The translations under genes and the position numbers were made by a program. Below are positions 11,390 through 46,235 of a DNA stretch of 64,000 nt, piece by piece. Position 1 is the first letter of the stretch, and each line of letters opens with the position of its first letter. Source of the DNA: Patescibacteria group bacterium (GTDB lineage Bacteria; Patescibacteriota; Patescibacteriia; PEXW01); contig JBAZBR010000003.1 of NCBI GenBank assembly GCA_041671325.1, forward strand, positions 4,506-68,505, in the 5' to 3' direction. The notes under the pieces are model-generated. The model did no database searches, had not been told where the DNA came from, and was given only the letters and a program-made list of their open reading frames with translations.

Positions 11390-12970
<1,581 letters not shown>

Positions 12971-29274: not shown

Positions 29275-29283
29275 TAAGTATAT

Positions 29284-29958
29284 ATGTCCCCTAATCCCCT
29301 AAAATATAAGTTCGCCGCCATTGCCACTGATGTGGTCATTTTCACCTTAAAACAAGGGGAATTGCAGGTTTTATTAATTAAGATGAAAAAGCAGCCTTTT
29401 GAAAAATGCTGGGCCGCCCCTGGTGGCTTGGTCAAACCCATGGAATCCGTGGAAGCCGCGGCTCGCAAGCAATTAGCCCTGAAAACTGGGGTAAAGAATA
29501 TTTATCTGGAACAGCTTTACACTTTTGGCGAAGTTAAGCGGGATCCTTTTGGCCGCGTAGTCTCAGTCGCCTATTTCGCCCTGATTCCCAGCGATTCAGT
29601 CACCCTGCATACCACCAAAGAATACGCGGACGTCCGCTGGTTTCCAGTCAAAAAATTACCAGCCTTGGCCTATGACCATGCCAAGATTATTGATACGGCA
29701 GTCCGGCGCTTGCAATCCAAAATGGGCTATACCAATATTGTCTGTAATCTTTTGCCCAAAGCCTTTTCACTTTCGGAATTGCAAGGAGTTTATGAAATCA
29801 TCCTGAATAAGCATTTTGACAAGCGGAATTTTCGGAAGAAAATTTTGAGCTTGAAATTGGTAAAGCCGATGGGTAAAAAACGGGAAGGTGAAGCAAACCG
29901 GCCAGCCCAGCTTTACACTTTTGCCAATCGTTTGATTTCTCAGGCAGAAATAATGTAA
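29284..29958 (+). CDS. nrtR: NrtR-like regulator (degenerate Nudix domain plus C-terminal winged helix)
   Basis: Nudix fold with degenerate box GGLVKPMESVEAAARKQLALKTGV (no REx2EE); C-terminal FSLSELQGVYEIILNKHFDKRNFRKKI is the NrtR wHTH signature. Confidence 0.75.
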   Translation: MSPNPLKYKFAAIATDVVIFTLKQGELQVLLIKMKKQPFEKCWAAPGGLVKPMESVEAAARKQLALKTGVKNIYLEQLYTFGEVKRDPFGRVVSVAYFALIPSDSVTLHTTKEYADVRWFPVKKLPALAYDHAKIIDTAVRRLQSKMGYTNIVCNLLPKAFSLSELQGVYEIILNKHFDKRNFRKKILSLKLVKPMGKKREGEANRPAQLYTFANRLISQAEIM

Positions 29959-29978
29959 TTTTTTTTACTTAATAGTTA

Positions 29979-31019: not shown

Positions 31020-31020
31020 T

Positions 31021-32895: not shown

Positions 32896-32933
32896 GAAAC
32901 CGATAAACCAGAAAAAGAAAGATGAGGTAAAAA

Positions 32934-34676
32934 GTGAAAATTCAGGAGTACGCACAGTTGCTGCAAACCCGACAATCTGGAAATGTCCAGGGTTTGTGCG
33001 GTCGGATTATCCGGGGCAAAAAGCCAATAGACTTCTTGACCCTGACTGATGATCCGCATCGGAAGTTGGTCATGCTGATGGGCCCGGATGGTTTGCAAAA
33101 ACTTTTGGGCAAGTCTGGCTATGACATGCTGATCGAAATCGGCTATGAAAAGAATTACATTGTTCGCAAGGTCAAAGACGAGAATTGCCAGTTTAAACTG
33201 GTGGTTTTCGGGGACAATGGGCCGGCCAAACTGGCCACCTGGGATAACACTCTTGAAATTGTTTCAGGAGTGTATCCGGAAATAGCCGCCAAGCTCAAAA
33301 AGCACGCCCGGGCTTTGGCTACTACGCCTTTTGATGAAATCGAAAGGCAAGCTGGTTTTGATTTTTCCGAAGTCGATAAAATCGGGGAAAGCGATCCCCG
33401 CTACCTGATTTTTGAACGGTATAAAAGCAAGGCTGGCAGTCTCATCGACGCCCGAGCTTTCCTGTATTTTACCGTTCATTTGCGCGAACTTTTCAGCGGT
33501 GACGGATATACCTACACCGCGGATGGTAAGCGCGGCATGATGGAATACATTGTGCCGAACCTGCCGATAACTGATCTGGGCGAATCTTTCGTCATAGATC
33601 TAAACATAGAAATTCCACAAATTTTGAAAGGAAACCAGATCATGAAGACCAATCTGCCTCTGCCCAAGCATTTCGACGCCAGCCTCATTGGCGAAGTCCG
33701 TCGGATTGAATACCAGAAACTGGCTGAAGCGGCTCGCGACTACGCCCGCAAGCACGGCTTGAAACCCGCGGCTACGGACAAGTTCAAGATCTGCGTCATA
33801 CCCATTGATTGCATGAACACTTTCTGCATCCCGGGTTTTGAACTTTTTGTCGGCGGCCGTTCAGGCAAGGGCGCGGTGGAAGATAATGAGCGGCTCTGCC
33901 GTTTCATTTATCAGAACCTGGGCTACATTTCCGCCATTGCCCCGACCCTGGACACGCATATAGCCATGCAAATTTTCCATGAAATGTTCTGGGTGAATGA
34001 CCAAGGTGAACATCCCGCACCCATGACTAACATCAGCCTGCGGGACGTGGAAACCGGTATCTGGAAAGTGAACCCGGAAATTGCCGGTAGCATTGCCAAG
34101 GGCAATTACGTTGGTTTGCAGAAACATGTGCTGCACTATTGCCGCAAGCTCAGCGACAACGGCAAATACCTGCTGACCATTTGGCCTTACCACGCCATGC
34201 TCGGCGGTATCGGCCATGCCCTGGTATCCAGTGTGGAAGAAGCGATCTTCTTCCATAACATCGCCCGCCGCAGCCAGACCAATTTTCAGATTAAAGGCGG
34301 CAACCCGCTGACTGAAAATTATTCCATCTTCAAGCCTGAAGTCCTGGATACGGATGGCGGCCAGTCCATTGCCCAGAAGAATTCCAAATTCTTGGCCAAC
34401 CTGCTGGAATTCGACGCGGTGATTATCGCCGGCCAAGCCAAGAGCCATTGCGTGGCTTGGACCATTGATGACCTCTTGACCGAAATCAAGGCCCAGGACG
34501 AATCCCTGGCGAAAAAAGTCTACCTATTGGCAGACTGCACTTCGCCGGTGGTGGTTCCCGGTATCGTGGATTTTACCGACCAAGCCGATGCCGCGTTCCA
34601 GCGCTTTGCCGCAGCGGGCATGCACATTGTCCGTTCCACTGAGCCGATAGACCAGTGGCCTGGCATCAATCTTTAA
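32934..34676 (+). CDS. large protein with novel N-terminal region and C-terminal isochorismatase/nicotinamidase-like cysteine hydrolase domain
   Basis: KICVIPIDCMNTF (Asp strand) and VIIAGQAKSHCVAWTI (catalytic Cys strand) match the isochorismatase family; N-terminal ~270 aa unassigned. Confidence 0.5.
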   Translation: MKIQEYAQLLQTRQSGNVQGLCGRIIRGKKPIDFLTLTDDPHRKLVMLMGPDGLQKLLGKSGYDMLIEIGYEKNYIVRKVKDENCQFKLVVFGDNGPAKLATWDNTLEIVSGVYPEIAAKLKKHARALATTPFDEIERQAGFDFSEVDKIGESDPRYLIFERYKSKAGSLIDARAFLYFTVHLRELFSGDGYTYTADGKRGMMEYIVPNLPITDLGESFVIDLNIEIPQILKGNQIMKTNLPLPKHFDASLIGEVRRIEYQKLAEAARDYARKHGLKPAATDKFKICVIPIDCMNTFCIPGFELFVGGRSGKGAVEDNERLCRFIYQNLGYISAIAPTLDTHIAMQIFHEMFWVNDQGEHPAPMTNISLRDVETGIWKVNPEIAGSIAKGNYVGLQKHVLHYCRKLSDNGKYLLTIWPYHAMLGGIGHALVSSVEEAIFFHNIARRSQTNFQIKGGNPLTENYSIFKPEVLDTDGGQSIAQKNSKFLANLLEFDAVIIAGQAKSHCVAWTIDDLLTEIKAQDESLAKKVYLLADCTSPVVVPGIVDFTDQADAAFQRFAAAGMHIVRSTEPIDQWPGINL

Positions 34677-34745
34677 AAAAGATTATGCCAGCAAGTTTCA
34701 AAACCCTGTAACCAAAAACGTAAATCAAGCATAAGGAGATATACA

Positions 34746-35531
34746 ATGTCACAAACAAGTGCAAAGCAGCTGATTAAAAACGCTGCGCAAGAAGGTCTGC
34801 TTACGGCCGGAGCCACTAAAGCTCTGAACGTGGTGGACATTGGTGCGGAAATTGAAGCCGCGCTGGGCGTGGACGTCGACAATGTCCAGTCCAGCGAAGT
34901 CATTCTGGTTTCCCAAATGCCGGACGACTCGGATTCCATTCGTTTTGCCGGGAATACCCAGAACGTTCGGGATGGTCACAATGAAGTGATCGAAGCTTTG
35001 CGGGAAACCAAACAGGCCGATAGTATTCTGGCTCACACCCGATACTTGAACGGCTTCATCCTTTTCCCATACCAGCCGATCGCCCAGGCCGTGCTCATGG
35101 ACCAGAACAATTATGATCCGAATATGGGCACGCCCCTGTATGACCAGACCGTTGTCCTCTTGGGAACCGTGTTGGCCAAAGCTCAGGCTTTTGCTGACAA
35201 CGGCGTACCAGTCAGGACCATCACTTTGATCATCAGCGACGGCGCTGACCAAGGTTCGCACCGTTCAACTCCCAAAGACTGCGCCAAGATTGTGGCTGAC
35301 ATGCTGAAAAGCGAAAACCACATTGTCGCGTCCATGGGCATTGATGATGGCTCAACCGATTTCCGGCGAGTGTTCGGGGAAATGGGCATTCCGGATGAAT
35401 GGATTATTACCCCCAAGAATGACAAACATTCCATCCGCCAAGCCTTCCGCATGTTTTCCCAGTCGGCGGTCCGGGCCAGCCAAAGTGCTGCCAATTTCAG
35501 CAAATTGCAAGTCGGCGGCTTTGGTTCCTAA
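34746..35531 (+). CDS. vWA-like domain protein
   Basis: MIDAS-like DDSDS, downstream GTPLYDQT and TLIISDGADQG. Confidence 0.45.
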   Translation: MSQTSAKQLIKNAAQEGLLTAGATKALNVVDIGAEIEAALGVDVDNVQSSEVILVSQMPDDSDSIRFAGNTQNVRDGHNEVIEALRETKQADSILAHTRYLNGFILFPYQPIAQAVLMDQNNYDPNMGTPLYDQTVVLLGTVLAKAQAFADNGVPVRTITLIISDGADQGSHRSTPKDCAKIVADMLKSENHIVASMGIDDGSTDFRRVFGEMGIPDEWIITPKNDKHSIRQAFRMFSQSAVRASQSAANFSKLQVGGFGS

Positions 35532-35752
35532 ACCAAAATTGCACCTTTAGCCAAGGGGAGGGATCTTAAAAAGATTCCTCCCCAAATTTTCTTTTGACCC
35601 TTGACAAAATCAAGATAATAGGTTAAGGTCACAGGCTATTTTTATAGAAATTTGTTCTGGAAAACCCCAAGTTTTCATTAGCAAATTTGTGTAAACAAAC
35701 AGTAAATAAACATTGAATCATTTCTAATTTTTAAAAGGAGAAAATTCAGGTA

Positions 35753-36433
35753 ATGAAGAAAAGCAGTCTGAAAATTGTTGGAGTTATGGCTTTTGCCATG
35801 GTCGTGATTTTATTCATGCAAAGCTACCCCAATTCAAAAACAAACGAAAAGGAGAATAAGACAATGAAATCGGCTTTGATTGTGGTTGACGTGCAAAACG
35901 ACTTTTGTCCGGGAGGCACCTTGGCTGTTCCAAAAGGTGACGAGGTGGTTCCGATAATCAACGACCTGATGGAGACAACGTTAAAAAGTCAGATCGACCT
36001 GGTGGTTTTTTCTCGGGATTATCATCCGGCGGATTGTGACCATTTTAAAAAATGGCCACCCCATTGCATTCAGAACACCAAAGGTGCGGGATTCCATGCC
36101 GGTCTGCGGTTCCCCAAAGGTTCGGTCGTAATTTCCAAAGGCATGGATATTCACGATGATGCCTATTCGGCCTTTGAAGGTTGCACCGACGCCGGTGTGA
36201 GCTTGGAGGAAGGATTGAAAGACTCCAAGATTGAACGGCTGTTTGTTGTGGGATTGGCAACCGACTATTGCGTCAGGTCAACGGTGCTTGATGCTCTGAG
36301 CAAGGGTTTTGAAGTGGTTGTTGTCATTGACGCCTGTCGCGCCGTTAATCTCAGTGCTGGCGACGGCCCAAACGCAATCATGGAAATGTTGGATGCCGGC
36401 GCCTCAATCGTACATATTTCGGCCCTGAATTAA
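35753..36433 (+). CDS. pncA: nicotinamidase/pyrazinamidase (alternative start 35864 gives a canonical N-terminus)
   Basis: ALIVVDVQNDFCPGG ... ATDYCVRST; longest ORF adds a hydrophobic N-terminal 37 aa; both ATGs have AAGGAG-type RBS. Confidence 0.85.
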   Translation: MKKSSLKIVGVMAFAMVVILFMQSYPNSKTNEKENKTMKSALIVVDVQNDFCPGGTLAVPKGDEVVPIINDLMETTLKSQIDLVVFSRDYHPADCDHFKKWPPHCIQNTKGAGFHAGLRFPKGSVVISKGMDIHDDAYSAFEGCTDAGVSLEEGLKDSKIERLFVVGLATDYCVRSTVLDALSKGFEVVVVIDACRAVNLSAGDGPNAIMEMLDAGASIVHISALN

Positions 36434-36517
36434 GAACAAAACGGAAGAGTGGTTGGTTGAAATATATCAGCCACTCTCCCCAATTTTTTTAGAGACTTGT
36501 AACGCTCAAACGTTTCA

Positions 36518-36560
36518 GATCTCTGGCCACAACTTTAGTTGCGACCATGCTCATTTTAAA
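36518..36560 (+). promoter_or_regulatory. conserved leader hairpin plus T-tract, copy 1
   Basis: TCTCTGGCCACAACTTTAGTTGCGACCATGCTCATTTT; near-identical element at 37591-37630. Confidence 0.4.
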
Positions 36561-36606
36561 CTTTTGAAAACTAAATACAGTAAACATACACAGAAGGAGA
36601 AACTGA

Positions 36607-37500
36607 ATGACCACCTATGTTCCTGATGGCAAAGTTTACCGGACCCAAGAAGGTACGGTAATTGAAGTCATTGGTGAAACTTATGCCAATGGCTTGCCGG
36701 GTGTTATTTGTTTGAACCCGGAAGCACCGGAAGGAGAGCGAATTTACCGGAAGGTATTTACTACCAAAAGAATCTATCTTCCCGAGGAGTATGGGCTGGC
36801 GGTAAAGGAGCACGTTGAACATCCGGATAATTTTATTATCTCGATGAACGGGTACTCCCGCATCAGCCCAGCCCAATGCCAGCAGTATGGCGTTTTCCCT
36901 GGGGAGTATGAACAGGCTTGTGCCGCCATTATTCGTGAAGCCATTTCCCATCTGCGCCTGAAATTTAAAGGCGCGCAGCTCCGCCTGATTTACGGAGCCT
37001 CGGATCTCGGAGTGGATATGGCTATCGAGAGTGTTGCCCGAGATTTCAATCTTTATCCGCTGGGCTTTTCCTGTCCAAGGTACATGATGTACGTCAAAGA
37101 TGATGACATGCCCGTGTACGTGGCGGTGAATTCCGATGCGTATGCCGACTTGTACATCAAGACTCTGGACTTGCTCATTGCTACAGGTGGACGCGAGCAA
37201 GCTCTGAAGCATGATATCTTGGCTGCCTGCCTTTACGGCAAGCGTATCCACTTTGTGGATGTGCTCGGCTGCCTTTCTCGAAATGGCGGCGTACCCGCAA
37301 CGGTATCTAATGCCGACGGCACCGTACGTGTTGAAAACGCACCTGCCGCATTCGGCCGGTACGTTTCCTTCTTTAGTCGGGATGACGGTGTGCTGCAGAC
37401 CCCGCCAGGTGGTGACAAGTGGGATGCACTTTTCCTGAACATTCAATCGGTTGCGACCGCTGTGTGTCGCAACAAAATGTCACCTGCCCGCATGTTTTAG
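36607..37500 (+). CDS. hypothetical; possible LOG/SLOG-like Rossmann protein
   Basis: LIYGASDLGVDMA and LLIATGGREQAL loosely resemble LOG-family glycine-rich motifs; weak. Confidence 0.3.
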   Translation: MTTYVPDGKVYRTQEGTVIEVIGETYANGLPGVICLNPEAPEGERIYRKVFTTKRIYLPEEYGLAVKEHVEHPDNFIISMNGYSRISPAQCQQYGVFPGEYEQACAAIIREAISHLRLKFKGAQLRLIYGASDLGVDMAIESVARDFNLYPLGFSCPRYMMYVKDDDMPVYVAVNSDAYADLYIKTLDLLIATGGREQALKHDILAACLYGKRIHFVDVLGCLSRNGGVPATVSNADGTVRVENAPAAFGRYVSFFSRDDGVLQTPPGGDKWDALFLNIQSVATAVCRNKMSPARMF

Positions 37501-37590
37501 TGAAATACCACTAGGAGTATGGATGAATAATCCCTACTCCTAGTAACCTTTTCTATCAAGAGATATGCAATGATGTTTGAATCATTATAT

Positions 37591-37630
37591 GTCTCTGGCC
37601 ACAACATTAAGTTGCGGCCATGTTCTTTCA
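37591..37630 (+). promoter_or_regulatory. conserved leader hairpin plus T-tract, copy 2
   Basis: GTCTCTGGCCACAACATTAAGTTGCGGCCATGTTCTTTC. Confidence 0.4.
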
Positions 37631-37671
37631 AAAACAATTAATGTGAAAATAGAAGAAAGTGAGGCAAAAAA

Positions 37672-39054
37672 ATGCCACGAATAGCGATTTACGGTTTGAG
37701 TGCCAACCCACCGGGTTTGCACCATCGGCGCATTGTCATGAACCTAACGCAACAGTTTGATCGCGTCATTGTGGTCCCATGCGGACCACGGCCGGATAAA
37801 CTGACCACGAATGATATTGCTCCCATCCACCGGGCAGTTATGACCGACCTAACTTTCGGGGATATTCCTAAGGTTACGGTTGATTTGACTGACCTGGAAC
37901 AAGACATATTTACCCGCACCTGGACTTTGCTTGATCGGTACTCTGAGGCTGGTGAATGTTGGTTAGTGGTCGGCAGTGATCTGATCATTGGCGGCGCTAA
38001 TGGTCAGTCAATAATCCAGTTGGAATGGGAACATGGATTGGAAATTTGGCAGAAATCAATAATGGTTGTGCCACGCCATAACTTCCCTTACCAGCCTGAA
38101 GATTTGCCGCCCCAGGTCATGCTTTTACCAGACATCCATGACGGTTCAAGTACGGAAATTCGCGAGAAGGTTTTCAGTCATCAAGCCTTTTATGATTTGG
38201 TCATGCCCGCAGTGGCTGAGTATATCGAACGGCATGGATTGTATCGGGGTATGCAGCCTAATTTTCTTTCACCCGAGACATCAATTGCCAAGCCGCGAGT
38301 ACTATGCGTGATCGATTCGTTGAATCCACGGGCGGGCGAAATTGCCGAGTGGCTTACACCAGTGTGTGTGGAAGATCTGCCCAACTGCATTGTGGCAGTC
38401 GGCGGTGACGGTTTTATGCTGCAGGTCATCCGTGAACACTGGCGAAAACGTTTGCCCATCATTGGGTTGAACGCTGGCCATCGTGGTTTTCTGCTCAATG
38501 AATTTCCAGCCGGTACTAATGTCCATAGTTTCTTCCGGAAGTTAACTATTCTACAGTCGCCCTTACTATATGTAACCGCGGTCCTCTCGAATGGTTCAAC
38601 GATTTCGCAGCTGGCATTTAATGATGCCTGGTTGCGTTCAATCAACGGTGGTCAAGCTGCTTGGCTGGAAGTAACGGTCGATGACGAGGTGAGATTACCG
38701 AAGTTAGTGGGTGACGGTGCCTTGATCGCGACTGCTGGCGGCTCCACGAGTTATGCTCGGGCATTAGGCGTAAAACCTATGCCTGTCGGAACGCAGCAGA
38801 TAATCTTGGCTGGGATGAACGTCTTTGAACCGTTTGGCTGGGGACCGGTCCATTTGGGACTTAGCCAGCGCGTCCAACTTCGTTCATTGGATTCAGAAAA
38901 ACGGGGCGTGGAAGGATTTGTTGACGGCATACCTCTAGGTCGTGTTATTAGCCTGGATGTGCGCGTCAGCCGTATTGCCGCAGCTGAACTGGCATTTTTG
39001 CCAGGCAATGATCCGCAGCGGAAAATCCTCGCTCTTCAGTTTCCCGAACATTAA
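37672..39054 (+). CDS. fusion of nicotinate-mononucleotide adenylyltransferase (NadD-like) and NAD kinase
   Basis: N-half: IAIYGLSANPPGLHH, LVVGSDLI, C-terminal SSTEIREKV (NadD SxTxIR); C-half: VAVGGDGFML (GGDG), NAGHRGFL, DGALIATAGGSTSYARALGV (NAD kinase). Confidence 0.75.
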   Translation: MPRIAIYGLSANPPGLHHRRIVMNLTQQFDRVIVVPCGPRPDKLTTNDIAPIHRAVMTDLTFGDIPKVTVDLTDLEQDIFTRTWTLLDRYSEAGECWLVVGSDLIIGGANGQSIIQLEWEHGLEIWQKSIMVVPRHNFPYQPEDLPPQVMLLPDIHDGSSTEIREKVFSHQAFYDLVMPAVAEYIERHGLYRGMQPNFLSPETSIAKPRVLCVIDSLNPRAGEIAEWLTPVCVEDLPNCIVAVGGDGFMLQVIREHWRKRLPIIGLNAGHRGFLLNEFPAGTNVHSFFRKLTILQSPLLYVTAVLSNGSTISQLAFNDAWLRSINGGQAAWLEVTVDDEVRLPKLVGDGALIATAGGSTSYARALGVKPMPVGTQQIILAGMNVFEPFGWGPVHLGLSQRVQLRSLDSEKRGVEGFVDGIPLGRVISLDVRVSRIAAAELAFLPGNDPQRKILALQFPEH

Positions 39055-39066
39055 TTTTTTAAAGGG

Positions 39067-39098
39067 GTGGAGCGTGCTGTTTACAGCTCGCTCCACCA
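39067..39098 (+). terminator. hairpin after nadD-nadK fusion
   Basis: GGTGGAGCG-TGCTGTTTACAGCT-CGCTCCACC, perfect 9-bp stem. Confidence 0.45.
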
Positions 39099-39226
39099 CC
39101 TAAATTATTTTAAAGCCTTGTCCCGAAATATTTCGGCACAGTGCTTTCACCCGAAAAATATTTTCGAGTGATGCTCATTTACAAAATGCAAGTAATAAAA
39201 CGTTTAGAATAAACAGGAGATTTTTT

Positions 39227-39787
39227 ATGAGACAGAAAGGTAGACCGGTAATCGCAAAAGAGCCTTTTACCGCTAAGACCATTACTACTGATGGTGGTCG
39301 CATTCGGAAGGTCTTTCAGACATCCGATTCAGCGAACGTCCTGATATACATTGCGGATAAAGATCAGATTCTTTTGGTCCGCCAGCAGCGTGAAGCTATG
39401 GCACGCGTCGGTAATCCAAAAGGTTGGATTATTGAAAGCGTTGCCGGTCGTTTCGATCGGAAAGAATCTGTGCGTCGACTTCTTGCACGCGAAGCAAGTG
39501 AAGAAGTTGGCGGTACAATTCGTCCCAAGGATATTGTGCTCCTTAATAATGGTGCACCACTGGCGCTTTCGGCTGGTTGTCTGGTGGAAAAGGCATGGCT
39601 CGGTTATATCGCAATCACCAGTGACCAGCTGGAAAAGACTGATCGCCAGTATGGCTTGAAAGAAGAAGGCGAGAGCATTACCCGCGTCTTCTTGCCAGTT
39701 AGTGGGCTGGAGAACTTTACGTGCGAGGACGTCCGCGTTTTCGCGCTCCTCCAGTGGTTCTTACGGAAAATAATAGGCAAAAGATAA
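39227..39787 (+). CDS. Nudix hydrolase
   Basis: intact Nudix box GRFDRKESVRRLLAREASEEVGG. Confidence 0.75.
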   Translation: MRQKGRPVIAKEPFTAKTITTDGGRIRKVFQTSDSANVLIYIADKDQILLVRQQREAMARVGNPKGWIIESVAGRFDRKESVRRLLAREASEEVGGTIRPKDIVLLNNGAPLALSAGCLVEKAWLGYIAITSDQLEKTDRQYGLKEEGESITRVFLPVSGLENFTCEDVRVFALLQWFLRKIIGKR

Positions 39788-39802
39788 AGAAAGGAGGAAG
39801 CC

Positions 39803-41065
39803 GTGAGCTTCCAAAGGATATGGCGAGGAAGTGGCGAGCCAATCATTACCTCGCTACTCGACGTGGACTTCTACAAGTTCACCATGGGAAACTTCATCTA
39901 CCGATTTTATCGGGACGTGATTGTCGCCTTCGGCATGAAGAACCGGACTTCAGGTGTCCGCCTGGCCGACTTCATTAATGAGCAAGAGCTCCGGGCCGAG
40001 CTTGATCATATCCGCACGCTCCGTTTCACTCAGAGTGAGATCTACTACTTGCGTGGAATGGACGTCTATGGGAAGAATATGTTTTCGGAAGAGTACCTTG
40101 AGTATCTTAAGACGGTTCAGTTGCCGCCATATGATCTTAAGGTAGTCGATGGACAATTCGACCTGAAATTCACTGGCCCGTGGGCTGCGGTTTCCCTTTG
40201 GGAAACGATTGCTCTGTGTATCGTCAACGAGCTGTACTATCGTGCTCTACTCCGTGACTTAAGTCGATTTGACCGTCAGGCGATTTATGCTAATGGCACT
40301 CGTCGTCTGCACGACAAGATTGAAATTCTGAAACAGCATTTGCGCATCACTTTTATCGAGTTTGGTACGCGCCGCCGTTTTGGCCGGGTTTGGCAGAGCG
40401 ACGCTACTTGCGCCATGGCTGAGGAACTTCCGCCATCGCAATTCCGCGGCACGTCGAACACATATCTTGCGTTTAAGTACGGCCTAACCCCTGGGGGCAC
40501 CAATGCGCACGAGCTACAGATGGTGGTTGCCGCGTTAGCGAACTCGGATGCTGAACTTCTCGCTTCTACCGGTATCGTGCTTGATCAGTGGTTTAATATG
40601 TATGGACCAGGCCTTTCAATTGCGTTGCCCGACACTTTTGGATCCGAATTCTTCTTCAAAGTTTTTGGCGAAGAAAGGGCACGGAAGTGGAAAGGTACAC
40701 GCGAAGACTCTGCCGATCCCCTGACTGCTGGTGAAGAACGAATTCAGTACTATCGCAATTTCGGTATTGACCCGATGACGAAGCTCTGGTTGCCAAGTGA
40801 CGGGCTTGATCTTGGCAAAATCCTGAAGATCGACGAGTTGTATGGTGATCGCATAATCATCTCTTATGGCTGGGGCACGACGCTCACGAATGATTTGGGT
40901 TTGCCGACCTTATCGCTCGTGGCCAAAGCGATTGCCGCCAATGGCCGAGGGACCGTGAAGCTCTCTGATAACCTTCAGAAAGCTATGGGTCCGGCTGATC
41001 AAGTCGAACGATACAAACGCGTATTCGGGTATACCAATGCTCGAAGCGAAGTTTGTAAAGTCTGA
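39803..41065 (+). CDS. pncB: nicotinate phosphoribosyltransferase
   Basis: N-terminal LLDVDFYKFTMGNFIY; 420 aa; GTG start with RBS GGAGGAAG. Confidence 0.8.
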   Translation: MSFQRIWRGSGEPIITSLLDVDFYKFTMGNFIYRFYRDVIVAFGMKNRTSGVRLADFINEQELRAELDHIRTLRFTQSEIYYLRGMDVYGKNMFSEEYLEYLKTVQLPPYDLKVVDGQFDLKFTGPWAAVSLWETIALCIVNELYYRALLRDLSRFDRQAIYANGTRRLHDKIEILKQHLRITFIEFGTRRRFGRVWQSDATCAMAEELPPSQFRGTSNTYLAFKYGLTPGGTNAHELQMVVAALANSDAELLASTGIVLDQWFNMYGPGLSIALPDTFGSEFFFKVFGEERARKWKGTREDSADPLTAGEERIQYYRNFGIDPMTKLWLPSDGLDLGKILKIDELYGDRIIISYGWGTTLTNDLGLPTLSLVAKAIAANGRGTVKLSDNLQKAMGPADQVERYKRVFGYTNARSEVCKV

Positions 41066-41082
41066 GCAATACTTGCATATAG

Positions 41083-41120
41083 GTGGTGAGGCCGGTCAAT
41101 TGACTAGCCTCACCCCTTTT
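41083..41120 (+). terminator. terminator after pncB
   Basis: GGTGAGGCCGGTCAATTGACTAGCCTCACC followed by CCTTTTCTC. Confidence 0.45.
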
Positions 41121-41201
41121 CTCAAGTTATCAAATTAAAAATTGATAGTTTAAGAAAAAGTTCATTACAATTTTACAAATACGCATCTCCTAAATTTTGG
41201 G

Positions 41202-42023
41202 ATGTTAGAAAGCGAGGATGCAACAATGATGCCAAAAGATTTGATTTTGGTCAGACACGCCGAATCAGAAGGCAATTTAGCCAACAAACTTTCACGCGCG
41301 GGCGACCATAGCGCTTTTACCCCGGAATTTTCCCAGCGCCACAGTTCCAAATGGCGGCTAACCGATAAAGGGATTTATCAGGCGAAAAGTGCTGGTGAGT
41401 GGTTGGCTTCATATTTCCCCTTTACTTTTGAACGCCAGTACACTTCCGAATATCTTCGGGCCGTGGAAACCGCCATGTATTTAGGGCTCGGTGGTGAATG
41501 GTACTTGGATTTCAATTTACGCGAGCGTGATCAGGGAGTGATGGATGTTTTGCCGGACAACGAGCGCCAGAGCCGTTATGCTGAAGAGCTCCGTCGTCGG
41601 GAAATTGACAGTTTTTTCTGGGCGCCGGCTGGGGGCGAATCTTTAGCCCAAGCTTGTTTGCGCATTGATCGGGTGCTGACTACCCTGCACCGCGAGTGTA
41701 GCAACAAGCGCGTCATCATCGTTAACCATGGCGAAATCATGTGGGCTTTCCGGGTCAGGCTGGAGCGTATGACCCAGATAAGGTTCCATGAGTTGGATGC
41801 GTCTGAAGATCCTCTGGACCATATCCATAATTGCCAAATCCTTCACTATACCCGTATCAATCCATTTACTGGTGAAGAGGCGCGTTATATGAATTGGATG
41901 CGGTCAATTTGTCCTTGGGACACAACACTTTCGTCGAATGACTGGCAAGAAATCATCCGCCCGAGGTTTACAGACGCAGATCTGAGAACCTTGGTAGAAA
42001 GCACCCCGCGTCTGATTCAGTAA
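41202..42023 (+). CDS. histidine phosphatase family protein (PGM/SixA-like)
   Basis: LILVRHAESEGN RHG motif. Confidence 0.7.
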   Translation: MLESEDATMMPKDLILVRHAESEGNLANKLSRAGDHSAFTPEFSQRHSSKWRLTDKGIYQAKSAGEWLASYFPFTFERQYTSEYLRAVETAMYLGLGGEWYLDFNLRERDQGVMDVLPDNERQSRYAEELRRREIDSFFWAPAGGESLAQACLRIDRVLTTLHRECSNKRVIIVNHGEIMWAFRVRLERMTQIRFHELDASEDPLDHIHNCQILHYTRINPFTGEEARYMNWMRSICPWDTTLSSNDWQEIIRPRFTDADLRTLVESTPRLIQ

Positions 42024-42110
42024 TTTGGTTTCATATTTGTAAAACATCGGTGGTGGAATTCATCGGACTTCTACCACCCCTTATCTGAGTTACTAAAAAA
42101 TTTGGTGATT

Positions 42111-42156
42111 CAGATAAAGAAAAAGAGAAACAGTTCGTTAACTTTAATATAAAGGA
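42111..42156 (+). promoter_or_regulatory. conserved promoter/leader motif, copy 1
   Basis: CAGATAAAGAAAAAGAGAAACAGTTCGTTAACTTTAATATAAAGGA; paralogous motif at 43005-43057. Confidence 0.4.
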
Positions 42157-42163
42157 TTAATAC

Positions 42164-42931
42164 ATGAAGATCATTTATTGGTTGGAAGAATACCCAGCAA
42201 CTTGTCAGAAGTCAGTATTCTTGGCTGGACCAACAGCACGACAAGGCGAAACGCCTTCTTGGCGTCCAGCTGCGGTGGAAGCATTACGTAACCTAGGATA
42301 CGATGGGCAGATTTTCATCCCCGAGCCCAGACCTGGCCAAAGCTGGCCAACCTACGATCAACATGACGCGGTAGTTGATTGGGAAGTAAATGGGCTCAAT
42401 CGAGCTGATTGCATTTTCTTTTGGGTACCGCGTGATGAGAAGGTTTTACCGGGGTTCACAACCAATATTGAATTCGGTGATTTTTTCAAGTCAGGTCGAG
42501 TGGTTCTCGGCGCTCCGGAGACAGCCGTAAGGATGCATTACATGAAATATCGTGGACTAAAAGAAAGCGGTATTATCATGCAGAGCAGTTTAATAAACAC
42601 GGCCGAACAAGCTATACGGTTGATAGGGGTTGGTGCATTAAGAGAAGGAACGGAAGTTCTTGTACCTGCAAATATCTGGATGAACAAAACTTTCCAATAT
42701 TGGTATGAGGAAGTCCGTCCAGTTGGTTATAAGCTTCGTTATGCAATACCCTTGATGGCCCAATATGACGAAAGACATATACTCAGGTCCTTTGCCATAA
42801 AAATTGGCATTGGTGAAATCGATGGTCAACTTAATCGAGACCTTTTCTTATTTGGAAGCCCGGAAGGTTTCTATCTTAATAGTTCCGGTGGTTCTGTCCA
42901 GAACAGAGGAGGTAAATTCACGATCTTTTAG
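42164..42931 (+). CDS. nucleoside 2-deoxyribosyltransferase-like protein
   Basis: VFLAGPTARQG ... ADCIFFWVPRD ... TNIEFGDF pattern resembles NDT family. Confidence 0.4.
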   Translation: MKIIYWLEEYPATCQKSVFLAGPTARQGETPSWRPAAVEALRNLGYDGQIFIPEPRPGQSWPTYDQHDAVVDWEVNGLNRADCIFFWVPRDEKVLPGFTTNIEFGDFFKSGRVVLGAPETAVRMHYMKYRGLKESGIIMQSSLINTAEQAIRLIGVGALREGTEVLVPANIWMNKTFQYWYEEVRPVGYKLRYAIPLMAQYDERHILRSFAIKIGIGEIDGQLNRDLFLFGSPEGFYLNSSGGSVQNRGGKFTIF

Positions 42932-43004
42932 AAAATTGAAGAGTGCAGGAATTGGAAATTTTTCTGTCCCTGCACCCTTTATCCAAGCCGTTAAGATATT
43001 GGCG

Positions 43005-43057
43005 GTTTAGATAAAGAAAAAAGAAAAAAGTTCTTAACATTATATTTCACAAGGAGT
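43005..43057 (+). promoter_or_regulatory. conserved promoter/leader motif, copy 2
   Basis: TTAGATAAAGAAAAAAGAAAAAAGTTCTTAACATTATATTTCACAAGGAG. Confidence 0.4.
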
Positions 43058-43061
43058 TGCC

Positions 43062-43610
43062 ATGAATTTTCCGGAAACCCTGTTGAACCCCAGAATTCGA
43101 TTGGTTCGGGCAAACGTGGGCGATGCCGAACGGATTCTTGCTGCGTTGGAACCGAGCTCAACGCAAAACCTCAGTTTTTTTTCGAAAAAGATAGACCTAG
43201 AAAAGCAACGTAAATATCTTGCAAGTCAATGTGCCAGTGACGATAATTGGCTATGGGTTGTTGAACGTATCAGCGACGGCATGATTCTTGGCACTGCCGG
43301 TCTGCACGAAATCGACAGAGTCAATCATAATGCCCGTCTTGGTTTTCTTATCTTCCGCAAAGAACATCGAGGCCAAGGCTATGGCACCGAAACTATTGTG
43401 CAGGTTTTACGCCAGGCCTTTATGGTTTTTAGGCTGAACAAGGTTTATCTGAAAGTATTTACCAGCAATCCTATGGCAGACCATTATCGAAAAATGGGTT
43501 TTGTTGACGAGGGTGTTCTCCTTCAGGAATATTGTTTAAAAGGAGAATACCACGACATGTTTCGATTGGCCTTTTTGAAAGCTGACTGGCGCGCGAAGAT
43601 CTTGGCATGA
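43062..43610 (+). CDS. GNAT-family N-acetyltransferase (RimJ/RimL-like)
   Basis: acetyl-CoA motif FRKEHRGQGYGTE. Confidence 0.75.
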   Translation: MNFPETLLNPRIRLVRANVGDAERILAALEPSSTQNLSFFSKKIDLEKQRKYLASQCASDDNWLWVVERISDGMILGTAGLHEIDRVNHNARLGFLIFRKEHRGQGYGTETIVQVLRQAFMVFRLNKVYLKVFTSNPMADHYRKMGFVDEGVLLQEYCLKGEYHDMFRLAFLKADWRAKILA

Positions 43611-43750
43611 AATCAAAAAGCGGTCGTTTTGGTTGGAGGAAGGTAACCCTTTCCTCCAACCAATCCTTAATTGATTCGCAAAAATAATTTTGGCGGATGA
43701 ATTAAAGAAAAAGCAAATTGAAAATAAAATAATCAGAAAGGAGACGCGCT

Positions 43751-45754
43751 TTGTCTACTACCACAGGAGCTTTTTTGGACATACGCAAACACGGCTTTGT
43801 ACGGGTGGCGGCGATTGTCCCGGAAGTGACTTTGTCAAATCCGTTACAGAATGCCCAAAATCACCTGCGCTACTTGCGGCAAGCTTATGAACAAGGCGCC
43901 ATGTATGCGGTCTGTCCGGAATTGGGGCTGACTGGCTACAGTAATGGCGATTTATTCTTTTCTCATGTTTTGATCGAAGCCGCATTGAAAGCGCTTAGGT
44001 TTCTGCTAGCGGAAAGCCGGTCAATGGACATGGTCATATCAGTGGGCATGCCATTGATCGTCGACGAACAGCTTTATAATTGCGCGGTGACCTTTTGTAA
44101 AGGTCAAATTTTGGGAATTACGCCCAAAGCCTATCCGCCAGAGTACCGGGAGTTTTATGAAGCTCGACATTTTGCTCGGGCTAGTAATGCCCGGAGTACC
44201 ACGGTGGAAATCTTAGGCCAATTAGTTCCATTTGGCACAGATATCCTGATTCGCTGTACGCAATATCCCAACCTGGTGATATTCACTGAAATTTGTGAAG
44301 ACCTTTGGGTGCCTATCCCGCCAAGTTCACACGCGGCGCTGGCTGGGGCAACGGTCTTGGCAAACTTGTCAGCTTCCAACATCACTATTGGCAAGGATGA
44401 GTATCGTCGCCAGTTAGTCGTCGCTTCTTCCGGCCGCAACCTGGCCGTGCAGATTTACTGCGCAACCGGGTTTGGCGAATCAACCGCTGATTTGGCCTGG
44501 GATGGAGCGGTCTGTATTGCCTCTGGCGGTAAATTACTCAAGACCAACCAGCGCTTTTTAATTGGCGGTTCATGTACGGTTACCGATGTTGATTTGCATC
44601 AGCTCATGCTTAACCGTCGCCAGAGTTCATTTCGCCAGAACGGAACCGACCATGCGCGGATATTCCGCACGGTTGAGTATCATGCTCCGTTGGGTATTTT
44701 GAATAAATCGATATTCGAGAAATTCATTTACCCAATCGAAGCTTTTCCGTTTGTGCCAAATAACCCGGCTGACCGCGATGAGCGTTGTCAGGAAACCTTC
44801 AATATCCAGACCAGCAGCCTGGCCCGGCGGTTAAAGGTATTTCCAACAGATCGTCAGAAATTGATCCTTGGTTTATCTGGCGGCCAGGATTCTACCCACG
44901 CCTTACTGGTGGCCGCCTATACCATGGACTTGCTTGGCTTGCCGCGAACTAACATTATCGCCTTGACCATGCCGGGATTTGGGACGACCGAACGGACCAA
45001 AGGCAATGCCCAAAAGTTGGCGGAAGCCCTGGGTGTCACCTTTCGGGAAATTTCTATAGTTGAGCTGACCAATGTCCTGCTTAAGAGCATTGGTCACGAT
45101 ATGTCAGTCAGGAATTCAACTTATGAAAATTCCCAAGCTTGGGCTCGCAAATTCGTCGAGTTAGCTTTAGCCGGCGATGAAGGCGCCATGGACTTAGGCA
45201 CGGGCGATCTTTCGGAATTGGCGCTGGGTTGGACTACCATGTTTGGCGATCACGCCTCGCATTATAACCCCAATCCCGGGGTACCCAAGACGCTGATTAG
45301 TCACCTTATGCGTTGGACTGCCGAGCATGTTTTTGCGAAAGAAACTGCGGTTCAGAAAGTACTTTTGGATATTCTGGCCACGCCCATCTCACCTGAACTG
45401 CAACCAGCCGGGGCTGATGGCCAGATTGTTCAAAAAACCGAGGACATCAATGGTCCTTACGAATTGCATGATTTCTTCCTTTACCACTTTGTGCGTTTTG
45501 GCCGTTCGCCCCTGACCATTGCCAGGTTGGCGATGCAGGCGTTTCAAGATCGGTATACTTTGGCCGAAATTAAGAAGTGGTTGGGCGTATTCCTGCGTAA
45601 GTTCTTTGCTAACCAGTTCAAACGGGACTGTCTGCCCAATGGGCCCAAGGTTGGTTTAACCTCCTTATCGCCCAGGGGTGATTGGCGCATGCCGCCCGAG
45701 GCTGATTCGACAATTTGGTTGGATGACCTCGCGAAAATTCCCGATGAATTGTAA
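43751..45754 (+). CDS. nadE: glutamine-dependent NAD+ synthetase (CN-hydrolase plus synthetase domains), TTG start
   Basis: nitrilase-like N-domain (VRVAAIVPE ... FTEICEDLWVP) and P-loop LILGLSGGQDSTH; 667 aa. Confidence 0.88.
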   Translation: MSTTTGAFLDIRKHGFVRVAAIVPEVTLSNPLQNAQNHLRYLRQAYEQGAMYAVCPELGLTGYSNGDLFFSHVLIEAALKALRFLLAESRSMDMVISVGMPLIVDEQLYNCAVTFCKGQILGITPKAYPPEYREFYEARHFARASNARSTTVEILGQLVPFGTDILIRCTQYPNLVIFTEICEDLWVPIPPSSHAALAGATVLANLSASNITIGKDEYRRQLVVASSGRNLAVQIYCATGFGESTADLAWDGAVCIASGGKLLKTNQRFLIGGSCTVTDVDLHQLMLNRRQSSFRQNGTDHARIFRTVEYHAPLGILNKSIFEKFIYPIEAFPFVPNNPADRDERCQETFNIQTSSLARRLKVFPTDRQKLILGLSGGQDSTHALLVAAYTMDLLGLPRTNIIALTMPGFGTTERTKGNAQKLAEALGVTFREISIVELTNVLLKSIGHDMSVRNSTYENSQAWARKFVELALAGDEGAMDLGTGDLSELALGWTTMFGDHASHYNPNPGVPKTLISHLMRWTAEHVFAKETAVQKVLLDILATPISPELQPAGADGQIVQKTEDINGPYELHDFFLYHFVRFGRSPLTIARLAMQAFQDRYTLAEIKKWLGVFLRKFFANQFKRDCLPNGPKVGLTSLSPRGDWRMPPEADSTIWLDDLAKIPDEL

Positions 45755-45875
45755 TTTGCTATTTGAAAAACCGACTCCCAAAAGGGGCCGGTTTTTTTTA
45801 TTTGTTTATCATTATAAAAAGGACATCCGTCTTGGATGCCCTTAAGGTTCAATTAGAATCGTCTTTGTCATAGCC

Positions 45876-46235
45876 TTAGTCATTGGCTTTCCGGTAATAA
45901 ATATCCCTGGGTGGAATGGATTTTTTAGGTTTAAATTTTGGCATGAGCCATAGGAATATGAGACTAAATGCCACACCGATCGCCAAGCATATACTTATGG
46001 TTTGCCAAGCCTTGATTCCCTCAAAATACAGAACTATAGCACTAGTGATCAGGCAAACACTAGTAATGCCCATGCCCAGATTAGCCATGGCTGGAATTAT
46101 CGCAGGTTTCAAGGTGCTTTTGCGAATCATAAAGAATGACACAACGAAGAGCAAGTTTAAAAAAGTCAGTATTACGAGCATGATAAGATTGTCAGTGCTC
46201 ATCTTTCCTCCAGTTTGAAATTGTGCAAAGAACAA
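45876..46235 (-). CDS. small membrane protein
   Basis: 119 aa, 3 hydrophobic helices. Confidence 0.4.
   Translation of the reverse strand: MFFAQFQTGGKMSTDNLIMLVILTFLNLLFVVSFFMIRKSTLKPAIIPAMANLGMGITSVCLITSAIVLYFEGIKAWQTISICLAIGVAFSLIFLWLMPKFKPKKSIPPRDIYYRKAND

What the first reader, a model, noticed from the sequence alone, without database searches (positions are those of the whole stretch)
37672..39054. Single-polypeptide fusion of NaMN adenylyltransferase (NadD-like) and NAD kinase
The N-half carries the NadD hallmarks (nucleotidyltransferase HxGH-like PPGLHH and the C-terminal SSTEIR motif). The C-half carries the NAD kinase GGDG, NxGxxGFL and DG...GSTSYA motifs. In most bacteria nadD and nadK are separate genes. 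A fusion would couple the adenylylation step to NADP formation.
Basis: seen in the sequence. Interest (0 to 1): 0.6.

Follow-up and report, generated by a model that had tools for sequence, protein, structure and literature searches.

The report
NadD–NAD kinase fusion enzyme gene
A single gene in an uncultured Patescibacteria genome really does join a NadD-type adenylyltransferase to an NAD kinase. The same two-enzyme protein is common in several uncultured bacterial phyla, but I found no study of it, so it is a genuine, modestly interesting variant of known NAD(P) enzymes.

Summary
Window 37672-39054 (+) is one uninterrupted 460-aa ORF, and three independent assemblies contain it identically.

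- **N-terminal domain:** residues 1-195 are a NadD-type nucleotidyltransferase. The profile hits B. subtilis NadD at E 3e-23, and the AF2 model matches NadD structures with TM 0.73-0.83.
- **C-terminal domain:** residues about 209-460 are a complete short NAD kinase. GGDG, NxGHxGFL, ND and DG..GSTSYA are all present, with TM 0.75-0.81 to solved NAD kinases.
- **Distribution:** more than 200 full-length homologues (at least 81 clusters at 50% identity) have the same architecture. They come from Patescibacteria, Verrucomicrobiota, Planctomycetota and Acidobacteriota, and none were found in viral collections.
- **Motif:** the N domain belongs to a distinct NadD subtype with FNPPGxHH in place of HxGH, plus PCGxRPDK and GSSxxIR. 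The subtype also exists as a standalone protein and fused to NadE.
- **Context:** in Patescibacteria the fused or standalone form occupies the NadD position in a pncA–pncB–nadE salvage island next to nrtR. One relative carries nadD-like and nadK as separate genes in that island.

Best reading: a bifunctional NaMN adenylyltransferase/NAD kinase that catalyses steps 3 and 5 of nicotinamide-to-NADP salvage. These steps are not consecutive, because NadE acts between them, so "coupling" is only partly supported. Substrate preference was not tested. I found no literature on the fusion. It is a new variant of a known kind, of modest interest.

The parts
37672..39054 (+). Complete fusion gene (460 codons plus TAA stop)
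   Evidence: the identical protein is found in three assemblies
37672..38256 (+). NadD-type adenylyltransferase domain (residues 1 to about 195)
   Evidence: TIGR00482 covers residues 6-191 at 3.8e-14. Profile A2 hits B. subtilis NadD 1kam at 3.3e-23 over its full length. The AF2 model has pLDDT 96.3, and its best Foldseek hits are bacterial NadD structures with TM 0.73-0.83.
37705..37725 (+). NPPGLHH, a variant of the (H/T)xGH ATP-binding motif (G15-L16-H17-H18)
   Evidence: Aligned to NadD 'DPVHIGH' and VPA0413 'NPPSLGH'. H18 is invariant and H17 is at least 90% conserved. FNPPGxHH is shared by fused and standalone members.
37777..37800 (+). PCGPRPDK, the subtype-specific conserved loop after strand 2 (R40 and K43 invariant)
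38143..38163 (+). GSSTEIR, the ISSTxxR-type C-terminal motif of NadD/NMNAT
38257..38295 (+). Short linker (residues about 196-208, MQPNFLSPETSIA)
   Evidence: This segment has low conservation in A1. The AF2 secondary structure shows coil between H179-188 and E199-203/E210-214.
38296..39051 (+). NAD kinase module (residues about 209-460), with an N-terminal alpha/beta domain and a C-terminal beta-sandwich domain
   Evidence: PRK04761 scores 1.1e-35 over residues 238-457. phmmer hits LmNADK1 at 8e-9. Foldseek matches NAD kinases at E 4e-19 with TMt 0.75-0.81.
38401..38412 (+). GGDG motif; D246 aligns with the GGDG aspartate D45 of L. monocytogenes NADK1
   Evidence: alignment; invariant in A1
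38470..38496 (+). NAGHRGFLL (NxGxxGFL motif)
38617..38631 (+). FNDAW; N317-D318 align with N122-E123 of LmNADK1
38710..38757 (+). GDGALIATAGGSTSYA; D348, T359 and Y361 align with D150, T161 and Y163 of LmNADK1
37593..37620 (+). Conserved 28-nt palindrome/hairpin CTCTGGCCACAAC-ATTAA-GTTGCGGCCA, about 50 nt upstream of the start codon; a possible regulatory element of this gene
   Evidence: A copy also lies upstream of the neighbouring 297-aa gene and upstream of the orthologous fusion in L089, with one compensatory C-G to T-A pair.
35753..36433 (+). Context: nicotinamidase PncA
   Evidence: Isochorismatase 3e-30; PRK11609 scores 179.8 bits against a cut-off of 174
39227..39787 (+). Context: Nudix hydrolase of the ADP-ribose pyrophosphatase (YffH/AdpP) type
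39803..41065 (+). Context: nicotinate phosphoribosyltransferase PncB
   Evidence: NF003704 scores 403.7 bits against a cut-off of 379
43751..45754 (+). Context: glutamine-dependent NAD synthetase NadE (CN_hydrolase plus NAD_synthase domains)
   Evidence: NF002730 scores 799 bits against a cut-off of 473; Pfam domains
29284..29958 (+). Context: NrtR-family (Nudix plus winged-helix) ADP-ribose-responsive regulator, flanked by two candidate operators at 29258-29276 and 29977-29995

Best explanation
The gene encodes a bifunctional NAD(P)-biosynthesis enzyme.

- **N-terminal domain.** It is a member of a distinct NadD subtype and most likely adenylylates nicotinate mononucleotide with ATP to give NaAD.
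- **C-terminal domain.** It is a complete short-type NAD kinase that phosphorylates the adenosine 2'-OH of NAD to give NADP.
- **Pathway in this Patescibacteria host.** The protein is part of a nicotinamide/nicotinate salvage island: PncA (Nam to NA), PncB (NA to NaMN), fusion N domain (NaMN to NaAD), NadE (NaAD to NAD), fusion C domain (NAD to NADP). The two fused activities therefore bracket NadE rather than following one another.
- **Likely benefit of the fusion.** This is inferred. The benefit is probably co-expression in fixed stoichiometry of two indispensable enzymes in a reduced genome, possibly with the oligomeric kinase core acting as a scaffold. Direct channelling is less likely.

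**Shown:** the ORF is intact, both folds and their motifs are present, the architecture is conserved across phyla, and the gene sits in this context. **Inferred:** both activities, the NaMN preference, and the reason for the fusion.
For: - **Intact ORF and both domains:**
- **N domain.** The profile hits genuine NadD enzymes over their full length, with 1kam at 3.3e-23. The AF2 model (pLDDT 96.3) matches NadD crystal structures with TM 0.73-0.83. H18, K43, the GxD motif (G101, D103), W119, W126 and S160/R164 are conserved in 41 homologues.
- **C domain.** Foldseek matches NAD kinases at E about 4e-19 with TMt 0.75-0.81. The GGDG aspartate, the ND pair and DG...GST.Y align to LmNADK1 D45, N122/E123, D150, T161 and Y163 and are invariant or nearly so.
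- **Whole protein.** The full-length model has pLDDT 92.3 and pTM 0.91.
- **Family size.** There are 218 full fusions among the proteins retrieved. Of the 150 best-scoring representatives at 50% identity, 81 are full fusions.
- **Context supporting NaMN.** The fusion lies between pncA and pncB with nadE downstream in the window, in L089 (72% identity) and in a Sungiibacteriota genome, L018. Standalone members of the same subtype occupy the same slot in pncA/pncB/nadE clusters in L090 and L091. The same subtype is found fused to NadE, the next enzyme after NadD (P0241, P0264, P0272). In L089 a separate NadR-like NMNAT/RNK with PnuC covers the NMN route.
- **Split form.** L092 has nadD-like and a separate nadK in one island.
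Against: - No enzyme assay exists for any member, as far as seven literature searches of the held library show.
- The canonical HxGH motif is replaced by GxHH, so catalytic competence of the N domain is inferred from conservation only.
- Scores are below the NCBIfam equivalog cut-offs for both NadD (53 vs 112) and NAD kinase (123 vs 211).
- NaMN versus NMN preference cannot be read from the sequence. Alignments around the SYT motif were ambiguous.
- Outside Patescibacteria the fusion is not next to NAD genes, so the context argument applies to only one lineage.
- I could not check whether these genomes also carry separate nadD or nadK genes.
Confidence: 0.68

Rival explanations
1. The N domain uses NMN, or NMN and NaMN equally. 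The single polypeptide would then carry out two consecutive steps, NMN to NAD to NADP. That is adenylylation followed by phosphorylation of the adenosine ribose, which is the logic of eukaryotic CoA synthase (PPAT-DPCK). Substrate hand-over between domains would be possible.
For: - Fusions often join consecutive steps.
- The motif region FNPPxxxH resembles VPA0413 (PRK08887), which NCBIfam annotates as 'nicotinate-nicotinamide nucleotide adenylyltransferase'.
- pTM 0.91 suggests a fixed arrangement of the two domains.
- In Verrucomicrobiota, Planctomycetota and Acidobacteriota the gene has no Preiss-Handler neighbours.
Against: - The best sequence and structure matches are NaMN-preferring bacterial NadD enzymes, while eukaryotic and archaeal NMNATs match only weakly.
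- The operon slot lies between pncA/pncB and nadE.
- The same subtype is found fused to NadE.
- A separate NadR-type NMNAT is present in the sister genome.
Confidence: 0.2
2. The N domain is catalytically dead and acts as a ligand-sensing regulatory domain of the kinase, binding NaMN, NMN, NAD or ATP. The protein would then be only an NAD kinase, as NCBI names it.
For: - The first His and the Gly of HxGH are replaced.
- The Pfam score is only at the cut-off, and the NCBIfam score is below it.
- NCBI pipelines call it simply 'NAD(+)/NADH kinase'.
Against: - The universal last His (H18), K43, the GxD motif, SSTxIR and the Trp residues are conserved in a NadD-like pattern across phyla.
- Standalone proteins with the same GxHH motif are the only NadD candidates seen in the retrieved stretches of the pncB-nadE clusters.
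- Human NMNAT also lacks the first His and the Gly (from my own knowledge of the GxFxPx[H/T]xxH motif).
Confidence: 0.07
3. The kinase domain phosphorylates NaAD, the product of the N domain, to give NaADP (NAADP). NadE then amidates NaADP to NADP, which would reorder the pathway.
For: The only support is the logic that fused domains often act consecutively, together with NadE being encoded nearby.
Against: - No NAD kinase or NAD synthetase is known to work this way, as far as I know.
- The NAD-kinase substrate-contact residues are of the ordinary type.
- No specific evidence supports this route.
Confidence: 0.03
4. The single ORF is an artefact: two adjacent genes were merged by a sequencing or assembly error.
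For: None was found.
Against: - Three assemblies contain the identical ORF.
- More than 200 full-length homologues from four phyla have the same domain junction.
Confidence: 0.01

Closest known systems
Bacterial NadD (nicotinate-mononucleotide adenylyltransferase; e.g. B. subtilis 1kam/1kaq, B. anthracis 3e27, E. faecium 8aih)
   Same: - The fold is the same (TM 0.73-0.83) and the profile matches over the full length (3e-23).
- The GxFxP loop, the terminal His, the GxD motif, the Trp residues and the SSTxIR motif are shared.
- The genomic role next to pncB and nadE is the same.
   Different: - HxGH is replaced by GxHH.
- A PCGxRPDK loop replaces the P-x-x-PPHK-type loop.
- The score is below the TIGR00482 cut-off.
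- Here the domain is fused to a kinase.
Short single-gene NAD kinase of Alphaproteobacteria (NCBIfam NF003406 / PRK04761)
   Same: This is the best-scoring NAD kinase model (1.1e-35, positions 38-255 of 257). It is also the closest standalone relative in GTDB genomes, at 29-37% identity over residues about 235-457, and all catalytic motifs are shared.
   Different: - The score is below the equivalog cut-off (123 vs 211 bits).
- The fusion carries an N-terminal NadD-like domain.
- It is found in Patescibacteria, Verrucomicrobiota, Planctomycetota and Acidobacteriota rather than Alphaproteobacteria.
VPA0413 of Vibrio parahaemolyticus (PDB 3h05; NCBIfam NF006479 / PRK08887 'nicotinate-nicotinamide nucleotide adenylyltransferase')
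   Same: It is the best single-sequence PDB hit of the N half (2.7e-5). It shares the FNPP...H loop and lacks the first His of HxGH, having S-L-G-H.
   Different: - It is shorter (177 aa) and keeps the Gly.
- It ranks well below the NadD enzymes in the profile search.
- The PDB entry names it an uncharacterized protein; I know of no assay (my own recollection).
Other bifunctional NAD(P) enzymes: archaeal NADP phosphatase/NAD kinase (MJ0917 type, NF010678), NadR (NMNAT plus ribosylnicotinamide kinase), NadM-Nudix
   Same: These are precedents for fusing an NAD kinase or an N(a)MN adenylyltransferase to another enzyme of the same cofactor network.
   Different: - The partner domains are different.
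- The N domain here is NadD-type, not NadR- or NadM-type. In L089 the NadR model TIGR01526 hits a separate neighbouring gene, and no NadR/NadM model is listed among the 25 best NCBIfam hits shown for the fusion.
- I found no description of a NadD-NadK combination.
Adenylyltransferase-kinase fusions of other cofactors: bacterial RibF (FAD synthetase) and eukaryotic CoA synthase (PPAT-DPCK)
   Same: Both pair a HIGH-type nucleotidyltransferase domain with a kinase in one chain for dinucleotide cofactor synthesis. This is an analogy drawn from my own knowledge.
   Different: Those fusions catalyse consecutive steps and use unrelated kinase folds. Here the fused steps are probably separated by NadE.

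Membership tests
NadD / nicotinate-nucleotide adenylyltransferase (TIGR00482, PF01467) | Nucleotidyltransferase alpha/beta fold superimposable on solved NadD structures | tested here: met
   The AF2 N-domain model has pLDDT 96.3. The top 48 Foldseek hits are NadD-type N(a)MN adenylyltransferases, almost all bacterial NadD plus P. falciparum NaMNAT, with TM 0.67-0.83.
NadD / nicotinate-nucleotide adenylyltransferase (TIGR00482, PF01467) | Score above the curated family cut-off | tested here: not met
   TIGR00482 scores 53.2 bits against a cut-off of 112.45, and all NadD equivalog models are below cut-off. Pfam CTP_transf_like scores 21.0 against 21.0, which is borderline.
NadD / nicotinate-nucleotide adenylyltransferase (TIGR00482, PF01467) | GxFxPxHxGH ATP-binding motif | tested here: inconclusive
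   G-L-S-A-N-P-P-G-L-H-H: the terminal His (H18) is invariant, but the first His is replaced by Gly and the Gly by His. This variant is conserved across the subtype.
NadD / nicotinate-nucleotide adenylyltransferase (TIGR00482, PF01467) | C-terminal ISSTxxR motif | tested here: met
   GSSTEIR at residues 158-164; R164 is invariant and S160 is at least 90% conserved.
NadD / nicotinate-nucleotide adenylyltransferase (TIGR00482, PF01467) | Pathway position between PncB (or NadC) and NadE | tested here: met
   The order pncA-fusion-pncB-nadE is seen in the window, L089 and L018. Standalone subtype members sit in the same slot in L090 and L091.
NadD / nicotinate-nucleotide adenylyltransferase (TIGR00482, PF01467) | NaMN-preferring adenylyltransferase activity | not testable with these tools
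   This needs an enzyme assay.
NAD kinase (PF01513 / PF20143; NadK/PpnK) | GGDG motif with the catalytic Asp | tested here: met
   G244-G245-D246-G247 are invariant, and D246 aligns with LmNADK1 D45.
NAD kinase (PF01513 / PF20143; NadK/PpnK) | NxGxxGFL motif and the C-terminal DG...(T)GST(A)Y substrate-binding segment | tested here: met
   N267-A-G-H-R-G-F-L and G347-D-G...G-G-S-T-S-Y361 are conserved in A1.
NAD kinase (PF01513 / PF20143; NadK/PpnK) | Two-domain NAD kinase fold | tested here: met
   Foldseek E 4e-19, with TMt 0.75-0.81 to the L. monocytogenes, T. maritima and M. tuberculosis enzymes.
NAD kinase (PF01513 / PF20143; NadK/PpnK) | Score above the curated cut-off | tested here: inconclusive
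   Pfam NAD_kinase scores 33.1 against 25.5, which is met. NCBIfam PRK04761 scores 123 against 211, which is not met.
NAD kinase (PF01513 / PF20143; NadK/PpnK) | ATP- or polyphosphate-dependent phosphorylation of NAD | not testable with these tools
   This needs an enzyme assay.
NadR / NadM type NMN adenylyltransferases | Match to the NadR (TIGR01526) or archaeal NadM (TIGR01527) models | tested here: not met
   No NadR or NadM model appears among the 25 best NCBIfam hits shown for the fusion. Those models do hit the separate NadR-like gene in L089.

The most novel reading that the evidence does not exclude
The fusion is a self-contained 'NADP synthase'. Either the N domain accepts NMN, or the kinase accepts NaAD. 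One polypeptide would then convert a pyridine mononucleotide plus two ATP directly into a 2'-phosphorylated dinucleotide, with hand-over between two rigidly packed domains. This would be an NAD(P) counterpart of CoA synthase. The subtype-specific GxHH and PCGxRPDK motifs would mark a mechanistically distinct adenylyltransferase.
Probability: 0.15. Interest if true: 0.55.

Novelty: new variant of a known kind. Interest (0 to 1): 0.35.

Why it matters
- **Annotation.** NadD and NadK are among the few near-universal, essential enzymes of NAD(P) synthesis, and NadD in particular has been pursued as an antibacterial target. This is a widespread natural fusion of the two, built on a NadD subtype with a non-canonical ATP motif. 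It is currently annotated only as "NAD kinase" in most records. Metabolic reconstructions of Patescibacteria, Verrucomicrobiota, Planctomycetota and Acidobacteriota will therefore wrongly score NadD as missing.
- **A testable question.** Characterising the protein would fix that annotation gap. It would also show whether the terminal His alone (GxHH) is enough for catalysis, and whether fusing steps 3 and 5 has any kinetic meaning.
- **Scale.** This is a useful but incremental finding, not a new kind of system.

Tried and rejected
1. **Phage origin or an NAD-reconstitution anti-defence cluster.** Rejected. The window carries NusB, RNase III, S16, TrmD, SMC, tRNAs and type IV pilus genes. The fusion is absent from GenBank phages and IMG/VR, where only NadK-half matches appear.
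2. **Paralogues of either half elsewhere in the window.** None found.
3. **Conserved synteny outside Patescibacteria.** None found.
4. **Riboswitch or other known RNA in the island.** No Rfam match at E up to 1.
5. **NrtR operator directly upstream of the fusion.** Not found. Candidate boxes lie only beside nrtR itself, so NrtR control of the fusion remains unproven.
6. **Reading NaMN/NMN specificity from positions equivalent to E. coli NadD Y84/Y118.** Abandoned, because HMM alignments around the SYT motif disagree with one another.
7. **Single origin of the fusion.** A quick neighbour-joining tree of N domains did not separate fused from standalone forms cleanly, so I make no claim.
9. **Literature.** Seven full-text searches and five papers opened or searched gave nothing on a NadD-NadK fusion.
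Full report
**The observation**

Window 37672-39054 (+) is a single 460-codon ORF. It has an ATG start, a GAGG ribosome-binding site, a TAA stop, and no interruption. Pfam finds CTP_transf_like (residues 10-166, exactly at the cut-off) and NAD_kinase. NCBIfam finds NadD TIGR00482 over residues 6-191 (3.8e-14) and NAD kinase PRK04761 over residues 238-457 (1.1e-35), both below the equivalog cut-offs.

The identical protein is encoded on contigs from three independent assemblies. The top 120 of 599 database hits include well over 100 proteins of about 460 aa that align end to end at 46-73% identity. A frameshift, a missed stop or a chimeric assembly is excluded.

**What organism this is**

The window is cellular, not viral. 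It encodes NusB, RNase III, ribosomal protein S16, TrmD, an SMC protein, five tRNAs and a type IV pilus cluster. NCBI files the exact protein under "Patescibacteria group bacterium". The fusion does not occur in GenBank phages or in IMG/VR, where only the kinase half finds relatives.

**The two halves**

N half:
- A profile built from the N half plus 41 standalone relatives hits genuine bacterial NadD enzymes over their whole length. B. subtilis 1kam scores 3.3e-23, and the E. faecium, S. aureus and B. anthracis enzymes follow. Eukaryotic NMNATs match only at the C-terminal SSTxIR region.
- The AF2 model of the N domain (pLDDT 96.3) superimposes on NadD crystal structures with TM 0.73-0.83.

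C half:
- In the full-length model (pLDDT 92.3, pTM 0.91) the C half matches solved NAD kinases at E about 4e-19, with TMt 0.75-0.81.
- Alignment with L. monocytogenes NADK1 puts D246 on D45 (GGDG), N317-D318 on N122-E123, D348 on D150, and T359 and Y361 on T161 and Y163. All of these are invariant or nearly so in 41 fusion proteins.
- The linker is only about a dozen residues long.

**A non-canonical ATP motif**

Against P. aeruginosa NadD (DPVHIGH), B. subtilis NadD (DPPHNGH) and VPA0413 (NPPSLGH), the window protein reads NPPGLHH. The first His of HxGH is therefore Gly, the Gly is His, and only the last His is retained.

This is not erosion in one gene. FNPPGxHH, PCGxRPDK and GSSxxIR are the signature of a whole NadD subtype, shared by fused, standalone and otherwise-fused members. 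Active NMNATs with Thr at the first position and no Gly are known; human NMNAT is one example, from my own knowledge. Catalysis is therefore plausible but unproven.

**Distribution and architectures**

- A search of 1.84 billion cluster representatives with the N half alone gave 169 representatives at E of 1e-30 or better.
- Among the best 150, 81 are full NadD-NadK fusions, 5 are truncated fusions, 46 are standalone proteins of about 190-205 aa, and 12 have other architectures.
- The other architectures include NadE plus NadD-like (P0241, P0264, P0272), CobT-like plus NadD-like plus NadK (P0294), and NadD-like plus Nudix (P0240).
- In GTDB species genomes, full fusions occur in Verrucomicrobiota (Luteolibacter, Prosthecobacter), Planctomycetota (Gemmataceae, Planctomycetaceae), Acidobacteriota (Blastocatellia) and Patescibacteria (Sungiibacteriota).
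- The nearest standalone kinases are the short alphaproteobacterial type, at about 29-37% identity.

**Genomic context**

In the window the gene lies in an island running from about 28.7 to 46 kb. The genes in order are:
- a NADAR protein
- NrtR
- PP2C
- three unknown proteins
- PncA
- an unknown 297-aa protein
- the fusion
- an ADP-ribose-pyrophosphatase-like Nudix protein
- PncB
- a histidine phosphatase
- a deoxyribosyltransferase-like protein
- a GNAT acetyltransferase
- glutamine-dependent NadE

Relatives show related arrangements:
- A 72%-identical relative (L089) has an ADP-ribosylglycohydrolase, NrtR, PnuC, a NadR-like NMNAT/kinase, PncA, the fusion, Nudix, PncB and NadE.
- A Sungiibacteriota genome (L018) has PncA, the fusion, PncB, the histidine phosphatase and NadE.
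- Standalone members of the subtype sit in the same slot. L090 has NadD-like, PncB and NadE. L091 has PncA, NadD-like, Nudix, PncB and NadE. L092 has NadD-like and a separate 268-aa NAD kinase in one island.
- Outside Patescibacteria the fusion has no NAD-related neighbours.

**Mechanism**

The simplest reading is a bifunctional NaMN adenylyltransferase/NAD kinase. The Preiss-Handler genes around it need a NaMN adenylyltransferase, and the N domain is the only candidate in the island. The same subtype is also found fused to NadE, the enzyme that follows NadD. In the sister genome the NMN route has its own NadR-type enzyme.

On this reading the fused activities are steps 3 and 5 of nicotinamide-to-NADP salvage, with NadE in between. 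Fusions of non-consecutive steps are known; E. coli HisB is one example, from my own knowledge.

Three rivals remain:
- NMN or dual specificity, which would make the steps consecutive. I put this at about 0.2.
- A catalytically inert, regulatory N domain, at about 0.07.
- A NaAD-kinase route, at about 0.03.

Only enzymology can decide between them.

**Novelty**

Seven full-text searches found no description of a NadD-NadK fusion. Pipelines already label such proteins. NCBI uses "NAD(+)/NADH kinase", and one JGI entry reads [quoted passage not shown]. The architecture is therefore present in databases but apparently uncharacterised.

I rate it a new variant of a known kind. Its practical value is mainly for annotation, because NadD will be scored as missing in these phyla. 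Its biochemical value lies in the GxHH motif.

Noticed in passing
window 28747-46000: The fusion sits in a dense NAD/ADP-ribose island: NADAR, NrtR, PP2C, three unknown proteins, PncA, an unknown 297-aa protein, the fusion, Nudix, PncB, His_Phos_1, a Nuc_deoxyri_tr2-like protein, GNAT and NadE. From about 30 to 46 kb the GC content is about 0.47-0.49 (one 2-kb bin at 0.43), against about 0.37-0.42 in the flanks. This suggests a horizontally acquired or compositionally distinct block.
   Followed up: partly
window 29258-29276 and 29977-29995: Two sites resemble the NrtR operator, TAGTGTA-N5-TACACTA, which contains the published GT-N7-AC core (PMC2330246). One overlaps the nrtR promoter region and the other lies just after nrtR. 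Similar sites flank nrtR in L089. No such site lies directly upstream of the fusion.
   Followed up: partly
window 37593-37620 and about 36527-36553; L089 about 9925-9952: A conserved palindrome/hairpin, CTCTGG(C/T)CACAAC-N4-5-GTTGCG(G/A)CCA, lies 50-70 nt upstream of the fusion and of the neighbouring 297-aa gene, and upstream of the orthologous fusion in L089. One pair changes in a compensatory way. Its function is unknown, and it could be an operator or an RNA hairpin.
   Followed up: partly
window 39119-39171; L089 about 11450-11505: Two tandem palindromes, CCCGAAA(N3-5)TTTCG(G/A)G, lie in the leader of the Nudix-pncB unit. Both are conserved in L089 with different loop sequences. There is no Rfam match.
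   Followed up: no
window 41110-41160, 42070-42120, 42975-43025, 43660-43715: Four consecutive intergenic regions (upstream of the histidine phosphatase, the NDT-like gene, GNAT and nadE) each hold an AT-rich hairpin whose sequence varies. Several stem mismatches are G.U-compatible. Each hairpin is followed by the invariant AAGAAAAAG about 35-45 nt before the start codon. This could be a repeated leader element or promoter architecture. It remains unexplained.
   Followed up: no
window 30180-35531; L091 1-4056; L092 1-3133: A PP2C phosphatase and three proteins with no Pfam match (624, 580 and 261 aa) are conserved next to the NAD genes in related genomes, at 48-62% identity. The 261-aa protein has a DxSxS-like 'DDSDS' stretch and may be vWA-like. 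That is my guess and was not tested. The set could be a signalling module linked to NAD/ADP-ribose metabolism.
   Followed up: partly
window 36607-37500; L092 4619-5512: A 297-aa protein with no Pfam, NCBIfam or PHROG match lies directly upstream of the fusion. In L092 a 56%-identical copy lies about 0.5 kb upstream of the standalone NadD-like gene, with two small ORFs between. It may be an uncharacterised component of the salvage island.
   Followed up: partly
window 41202-42023; L018 12973-13782: A histidine-phosphatase-superfamily protein (best NCBIfam hit is CobC alpha-ribazole phosphatase, weak) is conserved at 51% identity between pncB and nadE in a distant Sungiibacteriota genome. A role on a phosphorylated pyridine nucleotide, such as NADP or NaMN phosphatase activity, is conceivable but untested.
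   Followed up: no
proteins P0241, P0264, P0272, P0294, P0240, P0248: The same GxHH NadD subtype also occurs fused to NAD synthetase (with or without the glutaminase domain), to a CobT-like phosphoribosyltransferase plus NadK, to a Nudix domain, and as a tandem NadD-NadD-NadK. This subtype appears unusually prone to fusion with NAD-pathway partners.
   Followed up: partly
window about 1-12000 versus 15000-64000: In the ENA assembly the window's sequence is split between two contigs, k141_712465 (which ends near window position 12000) and k141_1044463. The window therefore comes from a more contiguous assembly of the same organism. A four-tRNA cluster (Ile, Val, Phe, Pro) lies at 13460-14269, near the join.
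   Followed up: no
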